Source: a virus
Taxonomy: Duplodnaviria > Caudoviricetes
DNA: 40,472 nt
Reading direction: 5' to 3' (one strand)
Virus record (IMG/VR): IMGVR_UViG_3300020044_003857
Coordinates: 1 to 40,472 of that record
Shown here piece after piece: positions 237-14,511 of this stretch. The notes beneath the pieces are model-generated. The model made no database searches, had not been told where the DNA came from, and saw only the letters and a list, made by a program, of their open reading frames with translations. Within the stretch, counting starts at the first letter, position 1; each line of letters begins with the position of its first letter. Made by a program: the position numbers and the translations under genes.

Positions 237-269
237 TACTAAACCATCCTTTATTTATTAACTAATTAA
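237..269. repeat. 33-bp direct repeat copy 1, ending in TTAACTAATTAA (258-269)
   Basis: tactaaaccatcctttatttattaactaattaa matches 554-586 at 32/33 nt. Confidence 0.95.
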
Positions 270-279
270 CTTTTTCAAC

Positions 280-287
280 GGAGCTAC
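280..287 (+). promoter_or_regulatory. Extended RBS GGAGCTAC (copy 1 of 5)
   Basis: GGAGCTAC-AT-ATG(290); identical 8-mer precedes starts at 639, 1712, 3050 and 4407. Confidence 0.9.
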
Positions 288-627: not shown

Positions 628-635
628 GGAGCTAC
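628..635 (+). promoter_or_regulatory. Extended RBS GGAGCTAC (copy 2)
   Basis: GGAGCTAC-ACC-ATG(639). Confidence 0.9.
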
Positions 636-1697: not shown

Positions 1698-1708
1698 GGA
1701 GCTACTAA
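1698..1708 (+). promoter_or_regulatory. Extended RBS GGAGCTACTAA (copy 3)
   Basis: Upstream of ATG 1712; 11/11 complementary to 12807-12817. Confidence 0.9.
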
Positions 1709-2866: not shown

Positions 2867-2870
2867 CCAA

Positions 2871-3025
2871 GGCCACCGTGGTTTAACGGGGCCAATCGCA
2901 GACTCGATTACGCGAAGCCTCCTCTATGGGCTTCCTGTATTCCTCGGGGGTGTCCCTTCGGGTCGATGCGGTCGGGTAGGGTGGGGGCTGTCCTCACCCT
3001 ATTCGTTATTTTTATTTTTGTTTTT
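2871..3025 (+). ncRNA. Putative structured small RNA or leader (RNA-1)
   Basis: Consecutive hairpins at 2871-2893, 2894-2909, 2914-2934 (carries CCTCCT) and a cUUCGg hairpin at ~2954-2962, ending in a strong terminator. Confidence 0.6.
2973..3025 (+). terminator. Intrinsic terminator
   Basis: 14-bp stem cgggtagggtgggg/cctcaccctattcg followed by a long T-rich tract. Confidence 0.8.
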
Positions 3026-3037
3026 AACTTAATCTTT

Positions 3038-3045
3038 GGAGCTAC
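3038..3045 (+). promoter_or_regulatory. Extended RBS GGAGCTAC (copy 4)
   Basis: GGAGCTAC-TGTC-ATG(3050); defines the true start of the vWA gene. Confidence 0.9.
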
Positions 3046-3049
3046 TGTC

Positions 3050-4366
3050 ATGACCCCTATCGACGAATACAAGTTCACCCCTTACTCCAACTACGATGAG
3101 TTGGATGCAGCCACCCGCATCTCTCGGGCTATCTCGCAGATCATGAACCACCCTTCGTTCTGCCTTGTCTACTTAGTCTTGCAGATCGGCAAGCTGATGA
3201 TGGTCGCGCTGGGGCACAAGGTTAAGACCGCTGCCACTAACGGGCGGGATATGTTGTTCAACGAGGTGTTCGTCGCAACGCTTGATGAGTATGAGGTTAA
3301 CTTCCTTGTGCTGCATGAGGCTGGGCACATCCTCTTCACACATCTGTCAGGCTACAAATACCTGCGCAAGATCGACCCCGTGCGGGCCAACAAAGCCATG
3401 GACTATGTAGTAAATGGCTGGATCATCGACACCGATCCGACCGGTGCCTTTGCCCGTATGCCCAAGGGCGGACTGTATAACCCCGACTACAGCAACCTGT
3501 CTGCTAAAGAAATCTTTGACTTACTTAGTGAAGAGGCGGGCGATGAGGGTGAAGACGGCGAGCCGTGTGATGACGGTGAGTCCAGTGAGTCCGGTGATGG
3601 TCAGCCCGGTGATGGTCAGCCCGAGGCTGGAAACGGTTCCGGTCAGCCCGACGATGGCGCGGGACTGGATTCACATGATTGGGACGGTGCCGAGTCCATG
3701 ACCCCGGAGGAACAGTCTGCGCTGGCTGATGCTGTGGATCATGCGATCCGTGAGGGTTCGTTATTAGTAGGCAAGGCCAAGGGTAATGTTAACCGTAACG
3801 TTACCGCCGCTCTTATCCCCAAGGTGGACTGGCGTGAGGTTCTGCGTGAGTTCATTACGTCATGCACCAAGGGCAAGGACACATATACGTGGCGTCAGTT
3901 CAATCGTCGCTATGTCATGCAGGATGTTTACCTGCCCACTAGCATTGCACACCGTCCGAAAGAGATTGTTATTGCACAGGACGTATCGGGTTCGATGAGC
4001 GACGACGATCAAGCCGTATGTTTAGCTGAGACTATAAAGATCGCTGAGTCTGTCAAACCTGAAGTTATTCGCATCCTGTGGTGGGACGCTGATGTACAGA
4101 AGGAGCAGATCATCCGCTCCGATAAGTCAAGCACCATCTCCCATATCTCCATCCCCGGTGGTGGCGGTACCCGTATGGGCTGCGTGTCTGACTACATGAT
4201 TGCCAACAAGCTCAAGCCCGATTGCTTGGTGGTGTTCTCGGATGGTGCGGTCGAGTCCCCGGTTAAGTGGAACGTATCCGTGCCGTCTATTTTTGTGATC
4301 GGTGGTGGGTACTGCAATAAGAAGTTCAAAGCACCGGCTGGTAAAGGCCGCGTTATCTTTAACTAA
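3050..4366 (+). CDS. DUF2201-type metallopeptidase + vWA domain protein
   Basis: TAATNG motif, HExxH (LHEAGH), acidic/Gly linker, MIDAS DVSGS, GGGGT, FSDG; start moved from 2966 to ATG 3050 on RBS evidence. Confidence 0.9.
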   Translation: MTPIDEYKFTPYSNYDELDAATRISRAISQIMNHPSFCLVYLVLQIGKLMMVALGHKVKTAATNGRDMLFNEVFVATLDEYEVNFLVLHEAGHILFTHLSGYKYLRKIDPVRANKAMDYVVNGWIIDTDPTGAFARMPKGGLYNPDYSNLSAKEIFDLLSEEAGDEGEDGEPCDDGESSESGDGQPGDGQPEAGNGSGQPDDGAGLDSHDWDGAESMTPEEQSALADAVDHAIREGSLLVGKAKGNVNRNVTAALIPKVDWREVLREFITSCTKGKDTYTWRQFNRRYVMQDVYLPTSIAHRPKEIVIAQDVSGSMSDDDQAVCLAETIKIAESVKPEVIRILWWDADVQKEQIIRSDKSSTISHISIPGGGGTRMGCVSDYMIANKLKPDCLVVFSDGAVESPVKWNVSVPSIFVIGGGYCNKKFKAPAGKGRVIFN

Positions 4367-4370
4367 TTAA
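4359..4370. promoter_or_regulatory. TTAACTAATTAA, supplying the stop codon of the vWA gene
   Basis: TAA 4364-4366 lies within the 12-mer. Confidence 0.8.
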
Positions 4371-4395: not shown

Positions 4396-4403
4396 GGAGC
4401 TAC
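4396..4403 (+). promoter_or_regulatory. Extended RBS GGAGCTAC (copy 5)
   Basis: GGAGCTAC-ATC-ATG(4407). Confidence 0.9.
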
Positions 4404-4406
4404 ATC

Positions 4407-5564
4407 ATGGCTATTACTAAAGCATCGGAAGTTATTCAGCGTCTTAACGACTACTCGCAGATGGTGAGGGATAAGGTGGATGGACACATAGTAATCCCCG
4501 AGTTGCATAGATCCGTCACTACCTTCAGTTCGTTCTCTGACAATCACATGGTTACGCAGTGCCGCAACGCTATGGTCGCGCTGTGGTCTAAGTACGGAAT
4601 GGAGCCTATGGGGGCTTCGGAGGGGGTTGTCGAGTCCAATAATGGCGGGTATGTGTTCGGCAAGGATGGCAAGACCATGGGCGTGGTCTTCCACTATGAG
4701 TCTAGGTCGGGCAAGGAGATCCGCCCCTACATTTGTATCTCAACACCGTTCATTGACAAAGAACGTAAGCCTACTGACTTGTTTAGAAGTAATACCGTCG
4801 AAGGGCTTATGTCTATTCTCAAGTGTGACAACGGTAGCTGGCTGGGTCATGGCATGGACCAATTCGCATCGAAGGCCGCTACGCAAGCTGTCTATAGTAT
4901 TCAGAACAAGATAAGCGTGGGCAGTATGGAGTTTAGTTTTAGCGCCCTCGACAGTGATAAAGCAATCGACCTTGTTAATTTGTTTACGGATTTGGAAGAG
5001 GGTAAATCCTTCTCACCTACCGATAAACTTTCCGCGTGGGTTACCGACACTAGGGAGCGCGCTGCTACGGTCATTAGTAATCGGCGTGAACACTCAATTA
5101 CGATGGGCAACTTTATGAAAGGATCTTTGGTTATCTCGGAGATCCCCTACGTGTGTGAGCATAAGTATCTTGTTCAGGATATAAGCATCGCGGGCAAACC
5201 TGATCTTATGGCGTCGGGGATAAACAAGACTTTCCGTATTAACGAGATCAAGGAACTGGTAACCGAGTACCCGTATGTATTCGGTGTACACAATTTGATT
5301 CGGGCTAAAGGTACTTCATCCAACGAAGGTTTGTTTAGCGGTGATTATTCGTGGGTTCCAACTTATGTCATGGAGAACAATCTAATCCGCATGAAACTTC
5401 ACAACCTTCCGCATATGTTCTATCCCGGTCGGCAGAATTGCGCCCGGAGCATTGTCATCCCCAAGACCCTCCAAACAAGCCATGAGAAAGAGGAGGCGCG
5501 TTCTGATGAGAGCCTTGCTCCGAGTGTGGTAGCTGTGGCCCGCACTAAGTCCGAATTCTTTTGA
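4407..5564 (+). CDS. Hypothetical protein (385 aa)
   Basis: Long ORF with the conserved RBS; no recognised motif. Confidence 0.85.
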   Translation: MAITKASEVIQRLNDYSQMVRDKVDGHIVIPELHRSVTTFSSFSDNHMVTQCRNAMVALWSKYGMEPMGASEGVVESNNGGYVFGKDGKTMGVVFHYESRSGKEIRPYICISTPFIDKERKPTDLFRSNTVEGLMSILKCDNGSWLGHGMDQFASKAATQAVYSIQNKISVGSMEFSFSALDSDKAIDLVNLFTDLEEGKSFSPTDKLSAWVTDTRERAATVISNRREHSITMGNFMKGSLVISEIPYVCEHKYLVQDISIAGKPDLMASGINKTFRINEIKELVTEYPYVFGVHNLIRAKGTSSNEGLFSGDYSWVPTYVMENNLIRMKLHNLPHMFYPGRQNCARSIVIPKTLQTSHEKEEARSDESLAPSVVAVARTKSEFF

Positions 5565-5573
5565 GGAATAGTT

Positions 5574-5891
5574 TTGGAAATCCCATACGCTTCACACATA
5601 CAGATAAAGCTACTGGGTGGGAGCAATGCTTCCATCCGGTTCAACGGCGCACCTAACTTAGTTCGCCGTCCTTTAACAATTGAAACAAAGCTGTCTACCC
5701 TTCCTGTAAATGTGCATGGTAGACTCAACATCCTTCGGCTCAAACAAGACTTCTCCCACACGGAGGGTCTTGGCTACAAGGATGGAATCGGTTTGTATTT
5801 ACTTTACGTTTCACCTGAGGAGCTAAGAGAACTAAGAGAAATCTACGTAGATAAAAGATTTTGGATCAAAGAACCTAAAGTAACTTCTTAA
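5574..5891 (+). CDS. Hypothetical protein
   Basis: TTG start after GAGGA; fills the gap; stop lies inside the inverted 12-mer. Confidence 0.7.
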   Translation: MEIPYASHIQIKLLGGSNASIRFNGAPNLVRRPLTIETKLSTLPVNVHGRLNILRLKQDFSHTEGLGYKDGIGLYLLYVSPEELRELREIYVDKRFWIKEPKVTS

Positions 5892-5899
5892 TTAGTTAA
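5888..5899. promoter_or_regulatory. TTAATTAGTTAA (inverted copy of the early 12-mer)
   Basis: Reverse complement of TTAACTAATTAA; supplies TAA 5889-5891. Confidence 0.75.
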
Positions 5900-6899: not shown

Positions 6900-7099
6900 A
6901 CAGAGAAGAGATTATTAAGATAGCGAGGCAGTCAGGTGTGCTGTCGGGATATGAATCTGAGTTGTTTCAACGCTTCGCCAACCTTGTCGCCGCAGCCGAG
7001 CGTGAGGCGTGCGCGAAAGTTGCAGAGAAAATGCTGCGTCACTACACGCAGGCAGTGACCGGGGTGCCAGAAGCCATCCGCGCAAGGGGGGAGAAATGA
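6896..7099 (+). CDS. AEREACAK/AIRARG-family small protein, paralog 1
   Basis: GTG start overlapping the upstream TGA; 67 aa. Confidence 0.8.
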   Translation: MNREEIIKIARQSGVLSGYESELFQRFANLVAAAEREACAKVAEKMLRHYTQAVTGVPEAIRARGEK

Positions 7100-7299
7100 A
7101 AGACTGGATCATGGAAGTGTGCCCCGAGATTGCCGAGTGGCAGGCAGAGGTCATTGCCGTGCAGGTTCGCATCAGTGTAGAGGCCGAGCGTGAGGCGTGT
7201 GCGAAGGCTTGTGAGGATGAGATTAAACGGGTGAAGCCTATTTATTCTGTCACGGCAGAGAACGCGCTCAAAGCCATCCGCGCAAGGGGGGAGGAATGA
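7096..7299 (+). CDS. AEREACAK/AIRARG-family small protein, paralog 2
   Basis: ATGA overlap, GGAG RBS; 67 aa (MKDWIMEV...). Confidence 0.8.
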   Translation: MKDWIMEVCPEIAEWQAEVIAVQVRISVEAEREACAKACEDEIKRVKPIYSVTAENALKAIRARGEE

Positions 7300-7532
7300 A
7301 AGGGCCGGCAACTAAACCCCCCGTGTACACCGGCCCAGTCCTTTCACCCGAGGATCAGCACAAGATTCTTCAGAGTAACTATTACCGGATCACTCCCCTG
7401 TCCCATCATCTCGGGCACCCCATCCACCCCGTTTTCAAAGAGTGCAACCTGCGCGTGGACTTTGGGTTGGACGGTGGGATCTATAAAGTGGAGTGGAGTA
7501 ACGTACCTATTAAAGAGGAGAAGAAGAAATGA
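7296..7532 (+). CDS. Hypothetical protein
   Basis: ATGA overlap, GGAGG RBS. Confidence 0.7.
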   Translation: MKGPATKPPVYTGPVLSPEDQHKILQSNYYRITPLSHHLGHPIHPVFKECNLRVDFGLDGGIYKVEWSNVPIKEEKKK

Positions 7533-12419: not shown

Positions 12420-12695
12420 ATGCCATACACCAAGTCGCCCCGCCCCTATAAACACGAATGGGAAATGGAGCAAAAGCGGAATGAGAAACCTGCTAGGGCC
12501 GCACGGGCACGGTCACGCAGGGCTATGGATGCGAAAGGCGTTGACAGGGATGGTAAAGTGATCGACCATATCGTCCCACTGAGTAAGGGTGGTAGTAGTG
12601 GCGCGGGTAACTTGCGTTTGACTACACGATCCAAGAATGCGTCTTTCAGTCGCAACAGCGACGGTAGCGTTAAGAAGAATACTCCGAAGAAATAG
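12420..12695 (+). CDS. Small HNH endonuclease
   Basis: IDHIVPLSKGGS...NLR....N motif. Confidence 0.9.
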   Translation: MPYTKSPRPYKHEWEMEQKRNEKPARAARARSRRAMDAKGVDRDGKVIDHIVPLSKGGSSGAGNLRLTTRSKNASFSRNSDGSVKKNTPKK

Positions 12696-12704
12696 TTTTA
12701 TCCA

Positions 12705-12880
12705 TCCGGTACCGTGTTAGGCGGGTAGTGGAAGTACCGGAGCCGCAAGGGCTTTAAACCCCGTCAGTCTAGCGGGTCGCTTTTTGAGTCCTCCTTAGAG
12801 CCTCAATTAGTAGCTCCCGACCGTCAGGCTAGATAGGAAGTAGGGTGAACGCGCAAGTCGTGTTCGCCCTATTAGCCTTT
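12705..12880 (+). ncRNA. Putative trans-acting antisense sRNA (RNA-2)
   Basis: 250-bp ORF-free gap; stems 12705-12712/12734-12741, 12768-12773/12828-12833, 12775-12779/12818-12822, 12784-12788/12802-12806; carries CCTCCTTA and TTAGTAGCTCC; 13-bp 3' hairpin. Confidence 0.7.
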
Positions 12881-12945: not shown

Positions 12946-14511
12946 ATGAAAATAGTTAATAACAAGGGGCTTCTGATCCGGACGCATAACCCGGAGAAGA
13001 TCGTATCCACTATCCCGCGAAGTAAGGTGCTGTCAAAACTGGATCACCCGAAAGGACCGATGTACGAGATGCTGGTCTATTGGGGGTATGACGAAGCAAG
13101 GGTATTAAAGAATCTAGGCTACAGCAGAACACCTTCACCCATAGAAGGTAAGTACGAATGGACAGGGTTTCACAAACCCTTCGCCCATCAAAAATCCACA
13201 GCCGCTTTCCTCACCATGCACGATAGATGCTTCGTGTTCAACGAGGCTGGAACGGGTAAGACTTCCGCAGTGATATGGGCAGCGGACTACCTTATGAAGA
13301 TAGGTAAAGTCAGGCGGGTTCTTGTGATATGCCCGTTGTCTATTATGAATTCTGCATGGGCTTCCGACCTATTTAAGGTGGCCATGAACCGCACTGTGCA
13401 GGTGGCCTACGGCGAGGCCAAGACTAGAAAGGCTATCGTCAGCGGAGAAGCTGAGTTCGTAATCATAAATTACGACGGTGTAGAGATTGTCCAAGACGAG
13501 ATCGCTAATGGTGGGTTTGATCTTATCGTCTGTGATGAAGCCACCGCGCTAAAGAATGTATCGACTAGGAGGTGGCGCACGATTGCGGGCATCCTCAAAC
13601 CCCACACAAAACTTTGGCTGTTGACGGGAACCCCCGCTGCACAGACCCCGCTCGATGCGTTCGGTCTAGCTAAACTAATTTCCCCTTCTCGGGTGCCCCG
13701 CACCAAGGGTGCATGGCAGGACATAACCATGCAGAAGATTACGCAGTTTAAATGGATACCCAAACCTCAGTCGCGGGATCTAGTCTATCAGGCGTTACAA
13801 CCCGCTATTCGATTTACAAAGGCGCAGTGCCTAGACCTACCTGAGGTCATGTACCTGATGCGGGATGTTGAACTTACCGCGCAGCAGAAGCGATATTATG
13901 AAACGCTTAAAAGCCAAATGCTCTTTGAGGCTGCGGGTGAGGAGGTGTCCGCAGTGAATGCGGCGGTACAGATTCAGAAGTTGCTACAGATATCGGGTGG
14001 TGCTGTCTACTCCGATGACAGAGAGGTACTGGAATTCGACGTATCAAACCGGCTAAATGCTTTACAGGAGATCCTTAACGAGACAGAAAACAAAGTCCTA
14101 GTGTTCGTGCCATACCGGCACACGATTGATGTGATCGCAAACTATCTTACTAAAAATAAAATTAGCGTCGATGTAATCAACGGAGATGTATCCGTTGGGA
14201 AACGTACCGATATCTTCAATCGGTTTCAGACGCAAGCTGACCCGAAAGTATTAGTGATCCAGCCTCAGTCGGCTTCGCATGGGGTGACCCTGACCGCTGC
14301 GGATACGGTCGTCTTTTGGTCGCCTGTAGTTGCACTGGAAACCTACCTTCAGTGCATCGCTCGCATCGACCGGGTGGGACAGAAGAACAAGATGACCGTG
14401 CATCACATACAGGGATCAGAAGTGGAACGCAAGATTTACCGGGCGCTCATGGACAAGAAGAACCTGCACTCGGAGCTAACTGATATGTATAGAAATCTCA
14501 AAAGTGTATAA
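12946..14511 (+). CDS. SNF2-family (SF2) helicase
   Basis: Q motif PFAHQ, Walker A GTGKT, CDEAT, LTGTP, HGVTL, QCIARIDRVGQ. Confidence 0.95.
   Translation: MKIVNNKGLLIRTHNPEKIVSTIPRSKVLSKLDHPKGPMYEMLVYWGYDEARVLKNLGYSRTPSPIEGKYEWTGFHKPFAHQKSTAAFLTMHDRCFVFNEAGTGKTSAVIWAADYLMKIGKVRRVLVICPLSIMNSAWASDLFKVAMNRTVQVAYGEAKTRKAIVSGEAEFVIINYDGVEIVQDEIANGGFDLIVCDEATALKNVSTRRWRTIAGILKPHTKLWLLTGTPAAQTPLDAFGLAKLISPSRVPRTKGAWQDITMQKITQFKWIPKPQSRDLVYQALQPAIRFTKAQCLDLPEVMYLMRDVELTAQQKRYYETLKSQMLFEAAGEEVSAVNAAVQIQKLLQISGGAVYSDDREVLEFDVSNRLNALQEILNETENKVLVFVPYRHTIDVIANYLTKNKISVDVINGDVSVGKRTDIFNRFQTQADPKVLVIQPQSASHGVTLTAADTVVFWSPVVALETYLQCIARIDRVGQKNKMTVHHIQGSEVERKIYRALMDKKNLHSELTDMYRNLKSV

What the first reader, a model, noticed from the sequence alone, without database searches (positions are those of the whole stretch)
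12705..12880. Candidate phage sRNA whose seed is antisense to the shared RBS of five early genes
Seen: the ORF-free gap between the HNH and helicase genes folds into nested stems with several G-U pairs and ends in a terminator-like hairpin. It leaves TTAGTAGCTCC (12807-12817) unpaired in my by-eye fold. GTAGCTCC is the exact reverse complement of GGAGCTAC, the RBS of genes starting at 290, 639, 1712, 3050 and 4407; the match is 11/11 for the AAA gene. Inference: an RNA made with the replication operon blocks translation of the whole early set in trans, giving a one-seed, many-target temporal switch. Known analogues are P1/P7 C4 RNA and P4 CI RNA, but I do not recognise this structure as either.
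Basis: partly seen in the sequence, partly recalled or inferred. Interest (0 to 1): 0.92.

Follow-up and report, generated by a model that had tools for sequence, protein, structure and literature searches.

The report
Phage off-switch RNA shared with hosts
A group of uncultured phages carries a conserved gene for a predicted knotted small RNA whose variable loop is the mirror image of the ribosome-binding sites of each phage's own early genes, so it likely silences them together, and copies of the same gene sit among anti-phage defence genes of Polynucleobacter bacteria, which may turn it against the phages.

Summary
The sequence match is exact: GGAGCTAC precedes five early genes, and its only antisense copy lies in the HNH-helicase gap. 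The gap holds one member of an RNA family with no Rfam match (109 distinct phage copies analysed). It has a pseudoknotted 5' scaffold with compensatory changes and a stem carrying a variable loop. In 30 related phage genomes the loop matches the genome's own early ribosome-binding sites better than those of other genomes (z 6.6; z 5.4 on 14 thinned genomes). Replication and late genes show no such match. A strict independent-pairs test had only 4 pairs and was not significant. The window's seed is partly paired in the computed fold but open in most homologues. Unexpectedly, at least 12 Polynucleobacter genomes carry the same RNA gene without phage core genes, 9 of them beside defence systems, with a seed that fits a tag common in phage early genes and rare in host genes. 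Best reading: a trans-acting antisense repressor of early translation, possibly captured by hosts as a defence. Expression, repression and timing are untested. The scan has noted the anti-early-RBS design on other phage DNA several times; my look-ups returned neither this scaffold nor the host copies.

The parts
12704..12836 (+). Predicted small RNA gene (core: P1, pseudoknot, P2, P3/P4 with variable payload); true ends unknown
   Evidence: CM R1 hit 12701-12841, E 1.2e-8 (the window is in the training set); family analysis
12706..12740 (+). P1 hairpin (12706-12712 / 12734-12740) with the conserved loop
   Evidence: constrained fold; own arms pair better than swapped arms in 106 of 109 copies (-12.3 v -5.9 kcal/mol)
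12720..12725 (+). Pseudoknot 5' strand, in the P1 loop
   Evidence: pairs with 12760-12765; pair tallies
12741..12753 (+). P2, short variable hairpin
   Evidence: hairpin of -2 kcal/mol or better in 106 of 109 copies
12760..12765 (+). Pseudoknot 3' strand
12767..12834 (+). P3 (12767-12773 / 12828-12834) and P4 (12775-12779 / 12818-12822) enclosing the payload
12784..12806 (+). Inserted hairpin in the payload; holds a second anti-SD-like word at 12790-12797, partly paired
   Evidence: same layout in host copies
12807..12817 (+). Seed, antisense to the early RBS tag
12840..12874 (+). 15-bp hairpin: 3' boundary of the RNA or a separate helicase-leader element
   Evidence: not listed as terminator; similar hairpins in RNA-less loci seen by eye
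280..287 (+). Target RBS, gene at 290 (89 aa, phrog_16527)
628..635 (+). Target RBS, gene at 639 (321 aa, no family hit)
1698..1708 (+). Target RBS, AAA ATPase at 1712 (11/11 match)
3038..3046 (+). Target RBS, DUF2201 metallopeptidase/vWA gene at 3050 (9-nt match)
4396..4403 (+). Target RBS, gene at 4407 (385 aa, no family hit)
12420..12695 (+). Small HNH-type gene, upstream neighbour
   Evidence: phrog_4590; weak HNH PHROGs
12946..14511 (+). SNF2 helicase, downstream neighbour

Best explanation
The gap holds a gene for a predicted ~130-nt pseudoknotted RNA whose variable loop is complementary to the ribosome-binding tag shared by the phage's first early genes, and it likely pairs with those mRNAs in trans and blocks their translation once the replication operon is transcribed. 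Shown: the complementarity, the conserved scaffold, its strand, the loop-RBS co-change across genomes and its confinement to the early block. From established sRNA biology (C4 and sar, as described in PMC5320573 and PMC12197685): pairing over an RBS lowers translation. Inferred: release from the polA-exo-HNH transcript (no sigma-70 site found nearby), a protective or protein-binding role for the pseudoknot, and the timing. The copies in Polynucleobacter defence islands are most simply a captured version that would hit phage early mRNAs carrying the GAAAGG tag (inferred, lower odds; see the section on the most novel reading).
For: Own-genome against other-genome match of payload to the 20 nt before the start codon: gene-639 homologue 6.32 v 5.21 nt (n=28, z 4.7), AAA 6.86 v 5.30 (n=29, z 6.7), DUF2201 5.17 v 4.77 (n=30, z 2.4). 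polA, exo, HNH, the gene-15251 homologue and primase give z -1.7 to 1.6; the same-sense control over the three early genes gives z 0.7. The signal holds on thinned sets of 24, 17 and 14 genomes (z 7.0, 6.0, 5.4). In 27 genomes, own matches of 7 nt or more: 22 of 95 (8.4 expected) and 65 of 288 (30.0) in the early block, 23 of 253 (20.4) small genes, 17 of 326 (19.5) replication genes, 27 of 851 (38.0) late genes. The most shared early 6-mer is antisense to the own payload in 17 of 27 genomes, about 6 expected (my sum of the control column). Lineage-private pairs go beyond the generic SD in the window, G017, G008, G032 and G007. Scaffold: 13 of 17 RNAalifold pairs have two-sided changes on an unfitted alignment of 34; one pseudoknot pair is G-C 72 / A-U 37 with no mismatch in 109; G-U 55 and 58 against A-C 0 and 2 at two others. 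The RNA moves away from the helicase in G017 and L388.
Against: No transcript or repression data. The independent-pairs test found only 4 pairs (2.6 same way, 0 opposite, p 0.25). Neighbour swaps gave 8 for, 4 against and 3 ties (p 0.19); only the five most distant pairs all favour the own loop. Several genomes match poorly (G016, G011, G021, G042: 5 nt or fewer), and in 10 of 27 the top early word is not in the loop. The window's seed is partly paired in the computed fold. The RNA is missing in 47 of 70 loci spanning exo to helicase, and three RNA-less, incomplete relatives also show shared early RBS words, so tags can exist without this RNA. Many seeds equal the 16S 3' tail, so generic anti-SD pairing explains part of the match. 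Whole-RNA folding favours + in only 64 of 109. Start codons came from my own loop-blind caller, which makes errors (it missed the helicase start at 12946).
Confidence: 0.68

Rival explanations
1. Same pairing, different job: the RNA excludes superinfecting relatives (or holds a carrier state) rather than timing the phage's own programme, and seed variants are immunity types, as with P1 against P7 C4.
For: Seeds differ by lineage together with targets. C4 specificity changes with 4 nt (PMC5320573 passages). Host copies would be the bacterial version of the same exclusion.
Against: No tyrosine integrase or resolvase in 5 of 5 complete relatives, so classical lysogenic immunity is unlikely. The position inside the replication operon fits mid-infection expression. 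Not exclusive with the best reading.
Confidence: 0.13
2. The loop is a general 16S-tail mimic that dampens strong-SD host mRNAs (host shut-off); the match to early genes is a by-product of their strong SD.
For: 107 of 109 payloads hold an anti-SD-like word and 68 hold CTTTC. The host-copy seed equals the Polynucleobacter 16S 3' end.
Against: Own-genome specificity beyond the SD. The window's seed extends into bases that are not 16S-like. Late genes and the gene-15251 homologue, with good SDs, show no own-genome match. GAAAGGA-N3-10-ATG is near control level in five host genomes.
Confidence: 0.08
3. Cis element of the polA-HNH-helicase transcript (processing signal, leader, riboswitch or self-cleaving RNA); the antisense word is incidental.
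For: It lies directly before the helicase in nearly all phage copies, and the nearly invariant pseudoknot core would suit a ligand-binding or catalytic RNA.
Against: It is relocated in G017 and L388, and host copies have no helicase behind them. The window seed pairs poorly with the helicase start (-4.8 kcal/mol; not tested across genomes). It does not explain the co-change with sites about 10 kb away. The scaffold may still process itself.
Confidence: 0.06
4. The RNA is a guide for a protein effector (the adjacent HNH, the helicase or a host nuclease) that cleaves or remodels early mRNA, or it activates rather than represses.
For: The scaffold-plus-variable-guide layout; HNH is the usual upstream neighbour.
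Against: HNH and helicase occur without the RNA and the RNA occurs without them. The target is always the RBS, as for simple blocking sRNAs.
Confidence: 0.05

Closest known systems
C4 antisense RNA of phages P1/P7 (Rfam RF01695) and C4-like chromosomal sRNAs of Acinetobacter baumannii (PMC5320573, passages read)
   Same: Phage RNA with a conserved scaffold and a variable loop that covers ribosome-binding sites; loop and target change together between phages; homologues occur in host chromosomes, where an anti-phage role was raised as one possibility.
   Different: No Rfam match. C4 has three stem-loops with a' and b' loops, is cut by RNase P, controls an antirepressor locus and serves lysogenic immunity. 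Here there is a pseudoknot, one seed, a block of early genes as targets, and no integrase in 5 complete relatives.
P22 sar, lambda OOP and aQ (review PMC12197685, parts 1-2 of 6 read); P4 CI RNA (recalled, not read)
   Same: Phage RNAs that control the phage's own genes by pairing.
   Different: Those are cis-encoded or single-locus. This one is about 8-12 kb from its targets and fits several genes through a shared tag.
Cuckoo / CCUCCUCCC-loop sRNAs of Alphaproteobacteria (PMC4615179, abstract only)
   Same: An unpaired anti-SD-like word displayed on a stem.
   Different: Cuckoo has 2-4 hairpins with one fixed loop motif. Here there is a single variable seed on a pseudoknot scaffold, matched to each phage genome.
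SviR of the Vibrio cholerae satellite PLE (bioRxiv 10.1101/2022.04.08.487710, abstract and outline only)
   Same: An island-encoded sRNA that lowers translation of phage mRNAs; precedent for the host copies.
   Different: The abstract does not describe SviR as a homologue of a phage RNA. Here host and phage carry the same RNA family, and the islands hold varied defence systems.
Earlier notes of this scan (e1-9722184, e1-6266959, e1-6353638, e1-8235198, e1-6236827, e1-6468113, e1-9772419, e1-6306455, e1-5641824)
   Same: Phage small RNAs antisense to a shared early RBS; co-change reported in several.
   Different: The notes shown mention no pseudoknot and other gene contexts. Sequence look-ups with a phage copy and a host copy returned nothing. 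Whether any is this family could not be told.

Membership tests
C4 antisense RNA (RF01695) | Match to the Rfam model | tested here: not met
   No hit in the window (E<=10 on the gap), in 20 phage loci or in 14 host loci (only a tRNA).
C4 antisense RNA (RF01695) | Three stem-loops with a' and b' target loops | tested here: not met
   The covarying structure is a pseudoknot plus one payload stem.
C4 antisense RNA (RF01695) | Variable loop pairs over an RBS and changes with its target | tested here: met
   (complementarity only).
C4 antisense RNA (RF01695) | RNase P processing | not testable with these tools
   No read data defining the ends.
C4 antisense RNA (RF01695) | Role in lysogenic immunity (antirepressor control) | tested here: inconclusive
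   No PF00589 or PF00239 in 5 of 5 complete relatives; non-integrating carriage is not excluded.
Cuckoo sRNAs | 2-4 hairpins, each with a CCUCCUCCC loop | tested here: not met
   One variable seed; no Rfam hit.
Trans-acting base-pairing sRNA (functional class) | Conserved RNA structure on one strand outside ORFs | tested here: met
Trans-acting base-pairing sRNA (functional class) | Accessible seed complementary to distant targets | tested here: inconclusive
   Open (probability above 0.7) in 74 of 99 phage copies and in most host copies; partly paired in the window.
Trans-acting base-pairing sRNA (functional class) | Discrete transcript; regulation rescued by compensatory mutation | not testable with these tools
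   Needs experiments.
Rfam ribozymes and riboswitches | Match to a curated model | tested here: not met
   Catalysis and ligand binding themselves were not tested.
Candidate viral structured RNAs of PMC10690425 | Listed among that paper's candidates | tested here: inconclusive
   Six core words had 0 hits in the 3 of 6 supplementary files searched; files 1, 2 and 4 were not searched and mmc1-3 could not be read.

The most novel reading that the evidence does not exclude
An RNA-only arms race. Phages use a retargetable pseudoknot RNA to shut off their own early genes. Polynucleobacter defence islands have captured that RNA from one phage sublineage and keep a seed against the GAAAGG tag (in 64 of 383 phage early-gene RBS windows, 7 of 343 island and flank genes), so the host can silence incoming phage early genes with the phage's own switch. 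Lineages with private tags, such as the window's, would escape it.
Probability: 0.33. Interest if true: 0.93.

Novelty: new variant of a known kind. Interest (0 to 1): 0.82.

Why it matters
In the review sections I read, the phage RNAs that control their own genes each act on one locus. This family offers a natural series of seed-target pairs that changed together, so one RNA controlling a whole early gene class becomes directly testable with reporters and compensatory swaps. The scaffold has no Rfam match and carries seeds of many sequences, so it may serve as a programmable silencing chassis. If the Polynucleobacter copies protect their hosts, they would be a protein-free defence derived from a phage regulator, of a kind that protein-model defence finders cannot see, and they could explain why early RBS tags diversify between these phages.

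Tried and rejected
Rfam: no match. blastn of the gap against cultured phages: none; best helicase matches only 36-40% identical, so no cultured model turned up. Expression: no RNA holder listed; two small-share runs only guessed to be RNA gave three short contigs in and beside the gap. They were found with this query and are no evidence either way. Protein-sponge reading (minus-strand RNA carrying the tag in sense): rejected on G-U against A-C counts and a null same-sense control over the three early genes (the gene-639 homologue alone reached z 2.4). A genome-wide SD style as the cause: rejected because late and replication genes show no own-genome signal. Island genes as targets of the host copies: no shared GAAAGG RBS in the conserved island families. 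A replacement antisense element in three RNA-less relatives: a simple word search was read by eye only and gave nothing clear. A per-genome palindrome search was too strict and missed the window's own set. The genome contigs pattern scan was mostly chance: 5 of the 74 loci tested (of 120 returned) matched the model; two of the five (L333, L335) are phage contigs inside unrelated MAG bins. Dropped before counts: 9 of 118 distinct pattern hits (six without clade genes, three probable true copies that failed score cut-offs); near-twin G003; G003, G031, G021 and G046. The model found no copy in five incomplete RNA-less contigs, which does not show absence. Paper searches (listings and abstract starts) showed no description of this RNA; the library lacks most subscription papers.

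Full report
Setting. The window is a 40.5-kb linear fragment (64% complete) of an uncultured tailed phage. The plus arm runs from early genes (unknowns, AAA ATPase, DUF2201) through small genes, polA, exonuclease, HNH and SNF2 helicase to the primase; the minus arm holds the virion and lysis genes. 'Early' is inferred from position. No close cultured relative was found. Complete relatives are 62-65 kb with terminal repeats; five tested carry no integrase or resolvase.

Observation. GGAGCTAC occurs five times on +, each 2-6 nt before an ATG, and once on -, at 12810-12817 (1.30 expected). The AAA match is 11 nt. The five genes are the top five of 48 called genes for pairing with the seed. The gap folds better on + (z -3.04 against -1.60). 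In the minimum-energy fold the seed is partly paired, and the open form costs about 3 kcal/mol. The distal hairpin is not scored as a terminator.

An RNA family. Helicase relatives showed a shared motif in the same gap. A pattern scan of IMG/VR returned 120 stretches, about 400 estimated. Of 118 distinct candidates, 109 passed the structure filters. The layout is P1 with a conserved loop, a variable P2, a strand that pairs back into the P1 loop (pseudoknot), a P3/P4 stem with a 21-76 nt payload, and usually a short 3' hairpin. RNAalifold on the unfitted alignment gives 17 pairs, 13 with two-sided changes. On a model-fitted alignment of 76 copies, 97.6% of cells pair against 77.2% shuffled (this leans towards the model). 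The search pattern fixed part of the pseudoknot but left mismatches possible at two positions. One of them is G-C 72 / A-U 37 with no mismatch; the other is U-G 58, U-A 27, C-G 19, C-A 2. G-U rather than A-C points to the + strand. P1 arms pair better with their own partner in 106 of 109 copies. There is no Rfam match for the window, 20 phage loci or 14 host loci. The RNA is patchy: 47 of 70 loci spanning exo to helicase lack it. It has moved in G017 and L388, which argues against a helicase-leader role.

Seed and targets change together. Of 50 long records, 30 held the AAA gene; these were fetched and start codons chosen without reference to the loop. The payload matched its own genome's early RBS better than other genomes' RBS: z 4.7 (gene-639 homologue), 6.7 (AAA), 2.4 (DUF2201) and 6.6 combined; replication genes gave none. 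Thinning on a protein tree to 24, 17 and 14 genomes kept z at 7.0, 6.0 and 5.4. Genome-wide the excess lies only in the early block (87 of 383 genes against 38 expected); late genes are at 27 of 851 against 38. The top shared early 6-mer is antisense to the own payload in 17 of 27 genomes against about 6. Against this: only 4 independent pairs (2.6 same, 0 opposite, p 0.25); neighbour swaps 8 for, 4 against, 3 ties; several genomes match weakly; and three RNA-less incomplete relatives also share early RBS words. The co-change is therefore strong across lineages but rests on few independent switches.

Host copies. A scan of bacterial genomes found the model in a 1-Mb contig titled Polynucleobacter sp. 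and in a second betaproteobacterial contig, without phage core genes. Genus searches found 10 of 151 and 10 of 101 genomes, 12 distinct. Scoring was lossy (22-32 candidates per genome), so this is a lower bound. An order-wide sample gave 3 of 151. In 11 islands examined there was no polA, exo, HNH, AAA or DUF2201 hit, and a WYL regulator family was present in 9. PADLOC hits lie within about 14 kb in 9 of 12: Mza (G058, G136), Hma (G156), Druantia (G189), Zorya (G073), Dnd/Pbe (G051), HEC-05 and RM (G128), PDC-S37 (G075), PDC-S11 (G115). None was found for G139, G052 or the short G144 contig. No background rate was computed. The seed equals the host 16S 3' tail. Its complement GAAAGG is in 64 of 383 phage early RBS windows, 20 of 851 late, 5 of 326 replication and 7 of 343 island and flank genes, and GAAAGGA before ATG is near control level in five host genomes (12-21 against 8-21). 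Host copies resemble one phage sublineage most (L165, L149, L116, L092), which fits capture from phage but does not prove the direction. The host of the window's phage is not shown.

Mechanism. Most likely the RNA is cut from, or ends, the mid-phase transcript (inferred; no sigma-70 site near it). The pseudoknot would stabilise it or bind a protein (inferred), and the seed would cover the early RBS tag and block ribosome loading on several mRNAs at once (complementarity shown; repression by analogy to C4 and sar). Confidence 0.68. Rivals are superinfection exclusion (0.13), general anti-SD host shut-off (0.08), a cis element (0.06) and a guide for a protein (0.05).

Comparison. It works like C4: variable loop over an RBS, co-changing target and chromosomal homologues (PMC5320573 passages). 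It is not C4 by model or structure. PMC2864571 passages list C4 and Polynucleobacter-1 as Rfam families, neither of which matched. It resembles cuckoo RNAs in showing an anti-SD word (abstract) and, for the host copies, SviR (abstract). Eight paper searches showed no description of it; unread supplements of PMC10690425 could list it. This scan has noted the same design on other phage DNA at least nine times, which is not independent evidence. What this report adds is the pseudoknot scaffold, a 30-genome test with controls, and the defence-island copies.

Verdict. A real structured RNA gene of a family with no Rfam match, and a new variant of RBS-blocking antisense RNA. Function is untested. 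Interest 0.82.

Noticed in passing
window 258-269, 575-586, 1655-1666, 2855-2866, 4359-4370, 5888-5899: A 12-bp near-palindrome (TTAACTARTTAA) lies upstream of each of the five target genes and of gene 5909, and nowhere else (reversed control 0). Likely an operator or promoter element; two winged-helix genes (6437, 8006) are candidate binders. G002, G016, G007 and G036 have other repeated palindromes in the early block.
   Followed up: partly
window 12840-12874; e.g. L003, L005, L006, L011, L017, L032, L050, L052, L075 before the helicase start: A long hairpin precedes the SNF2 helicase start in many relatives, including those without the pseudoknot RNA (seen by eye); possibly a separate translational operator or processing site.
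   Followed up: no
window 2868-3005: Structured-looking stretch between the palindrome and the DUF2201 start, ending in a 15-bp terminator-like hairpin with a U-tail (2973-3005); a possible attenuator or second small RNA.
   Followed up: no
window 12790-12797: A second anti-SD-like word in the payload's inserted hairpin, partly paired; it could widen the target set to ordinary strong RBSs.
   Followed up: no
L411-L422, L428-L445 (Polynucleobacter islands): A recurrent island with a WYL/WCX regulator, a MerR plus VIT/vWA pair or an unknown gene pair just upstream of the RNA, a DUF3857 transglutaminase and several unknown families, flanked by different defence systems in each genome; the unknown genes are defence candidates.
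   Followed up: partly
L447:1073-1190 (G313): A divergent copy of the RNA (E 5e-9) in a 4.9-Mb genome of the same order, about 400 nt from a tRNA gene.
   Followed up: no
L135 (G016): This genome's loop does not fit its early RBSs but matches 8 nt before its primase start (read by eye); a possible retargeting.
   Followed up: no
window 7071-7102 / 7271-7302 and 6995-7017 / 7183-7205: Near-identical repeats among the small genes, suggesting a local duplication of short ORF cassettes.
   Followed up: no
L333, L335: Phage contigs of this clade binned into Methanoregula and Anaerolinea MAGs, probably misbinned.
   Followed up: no
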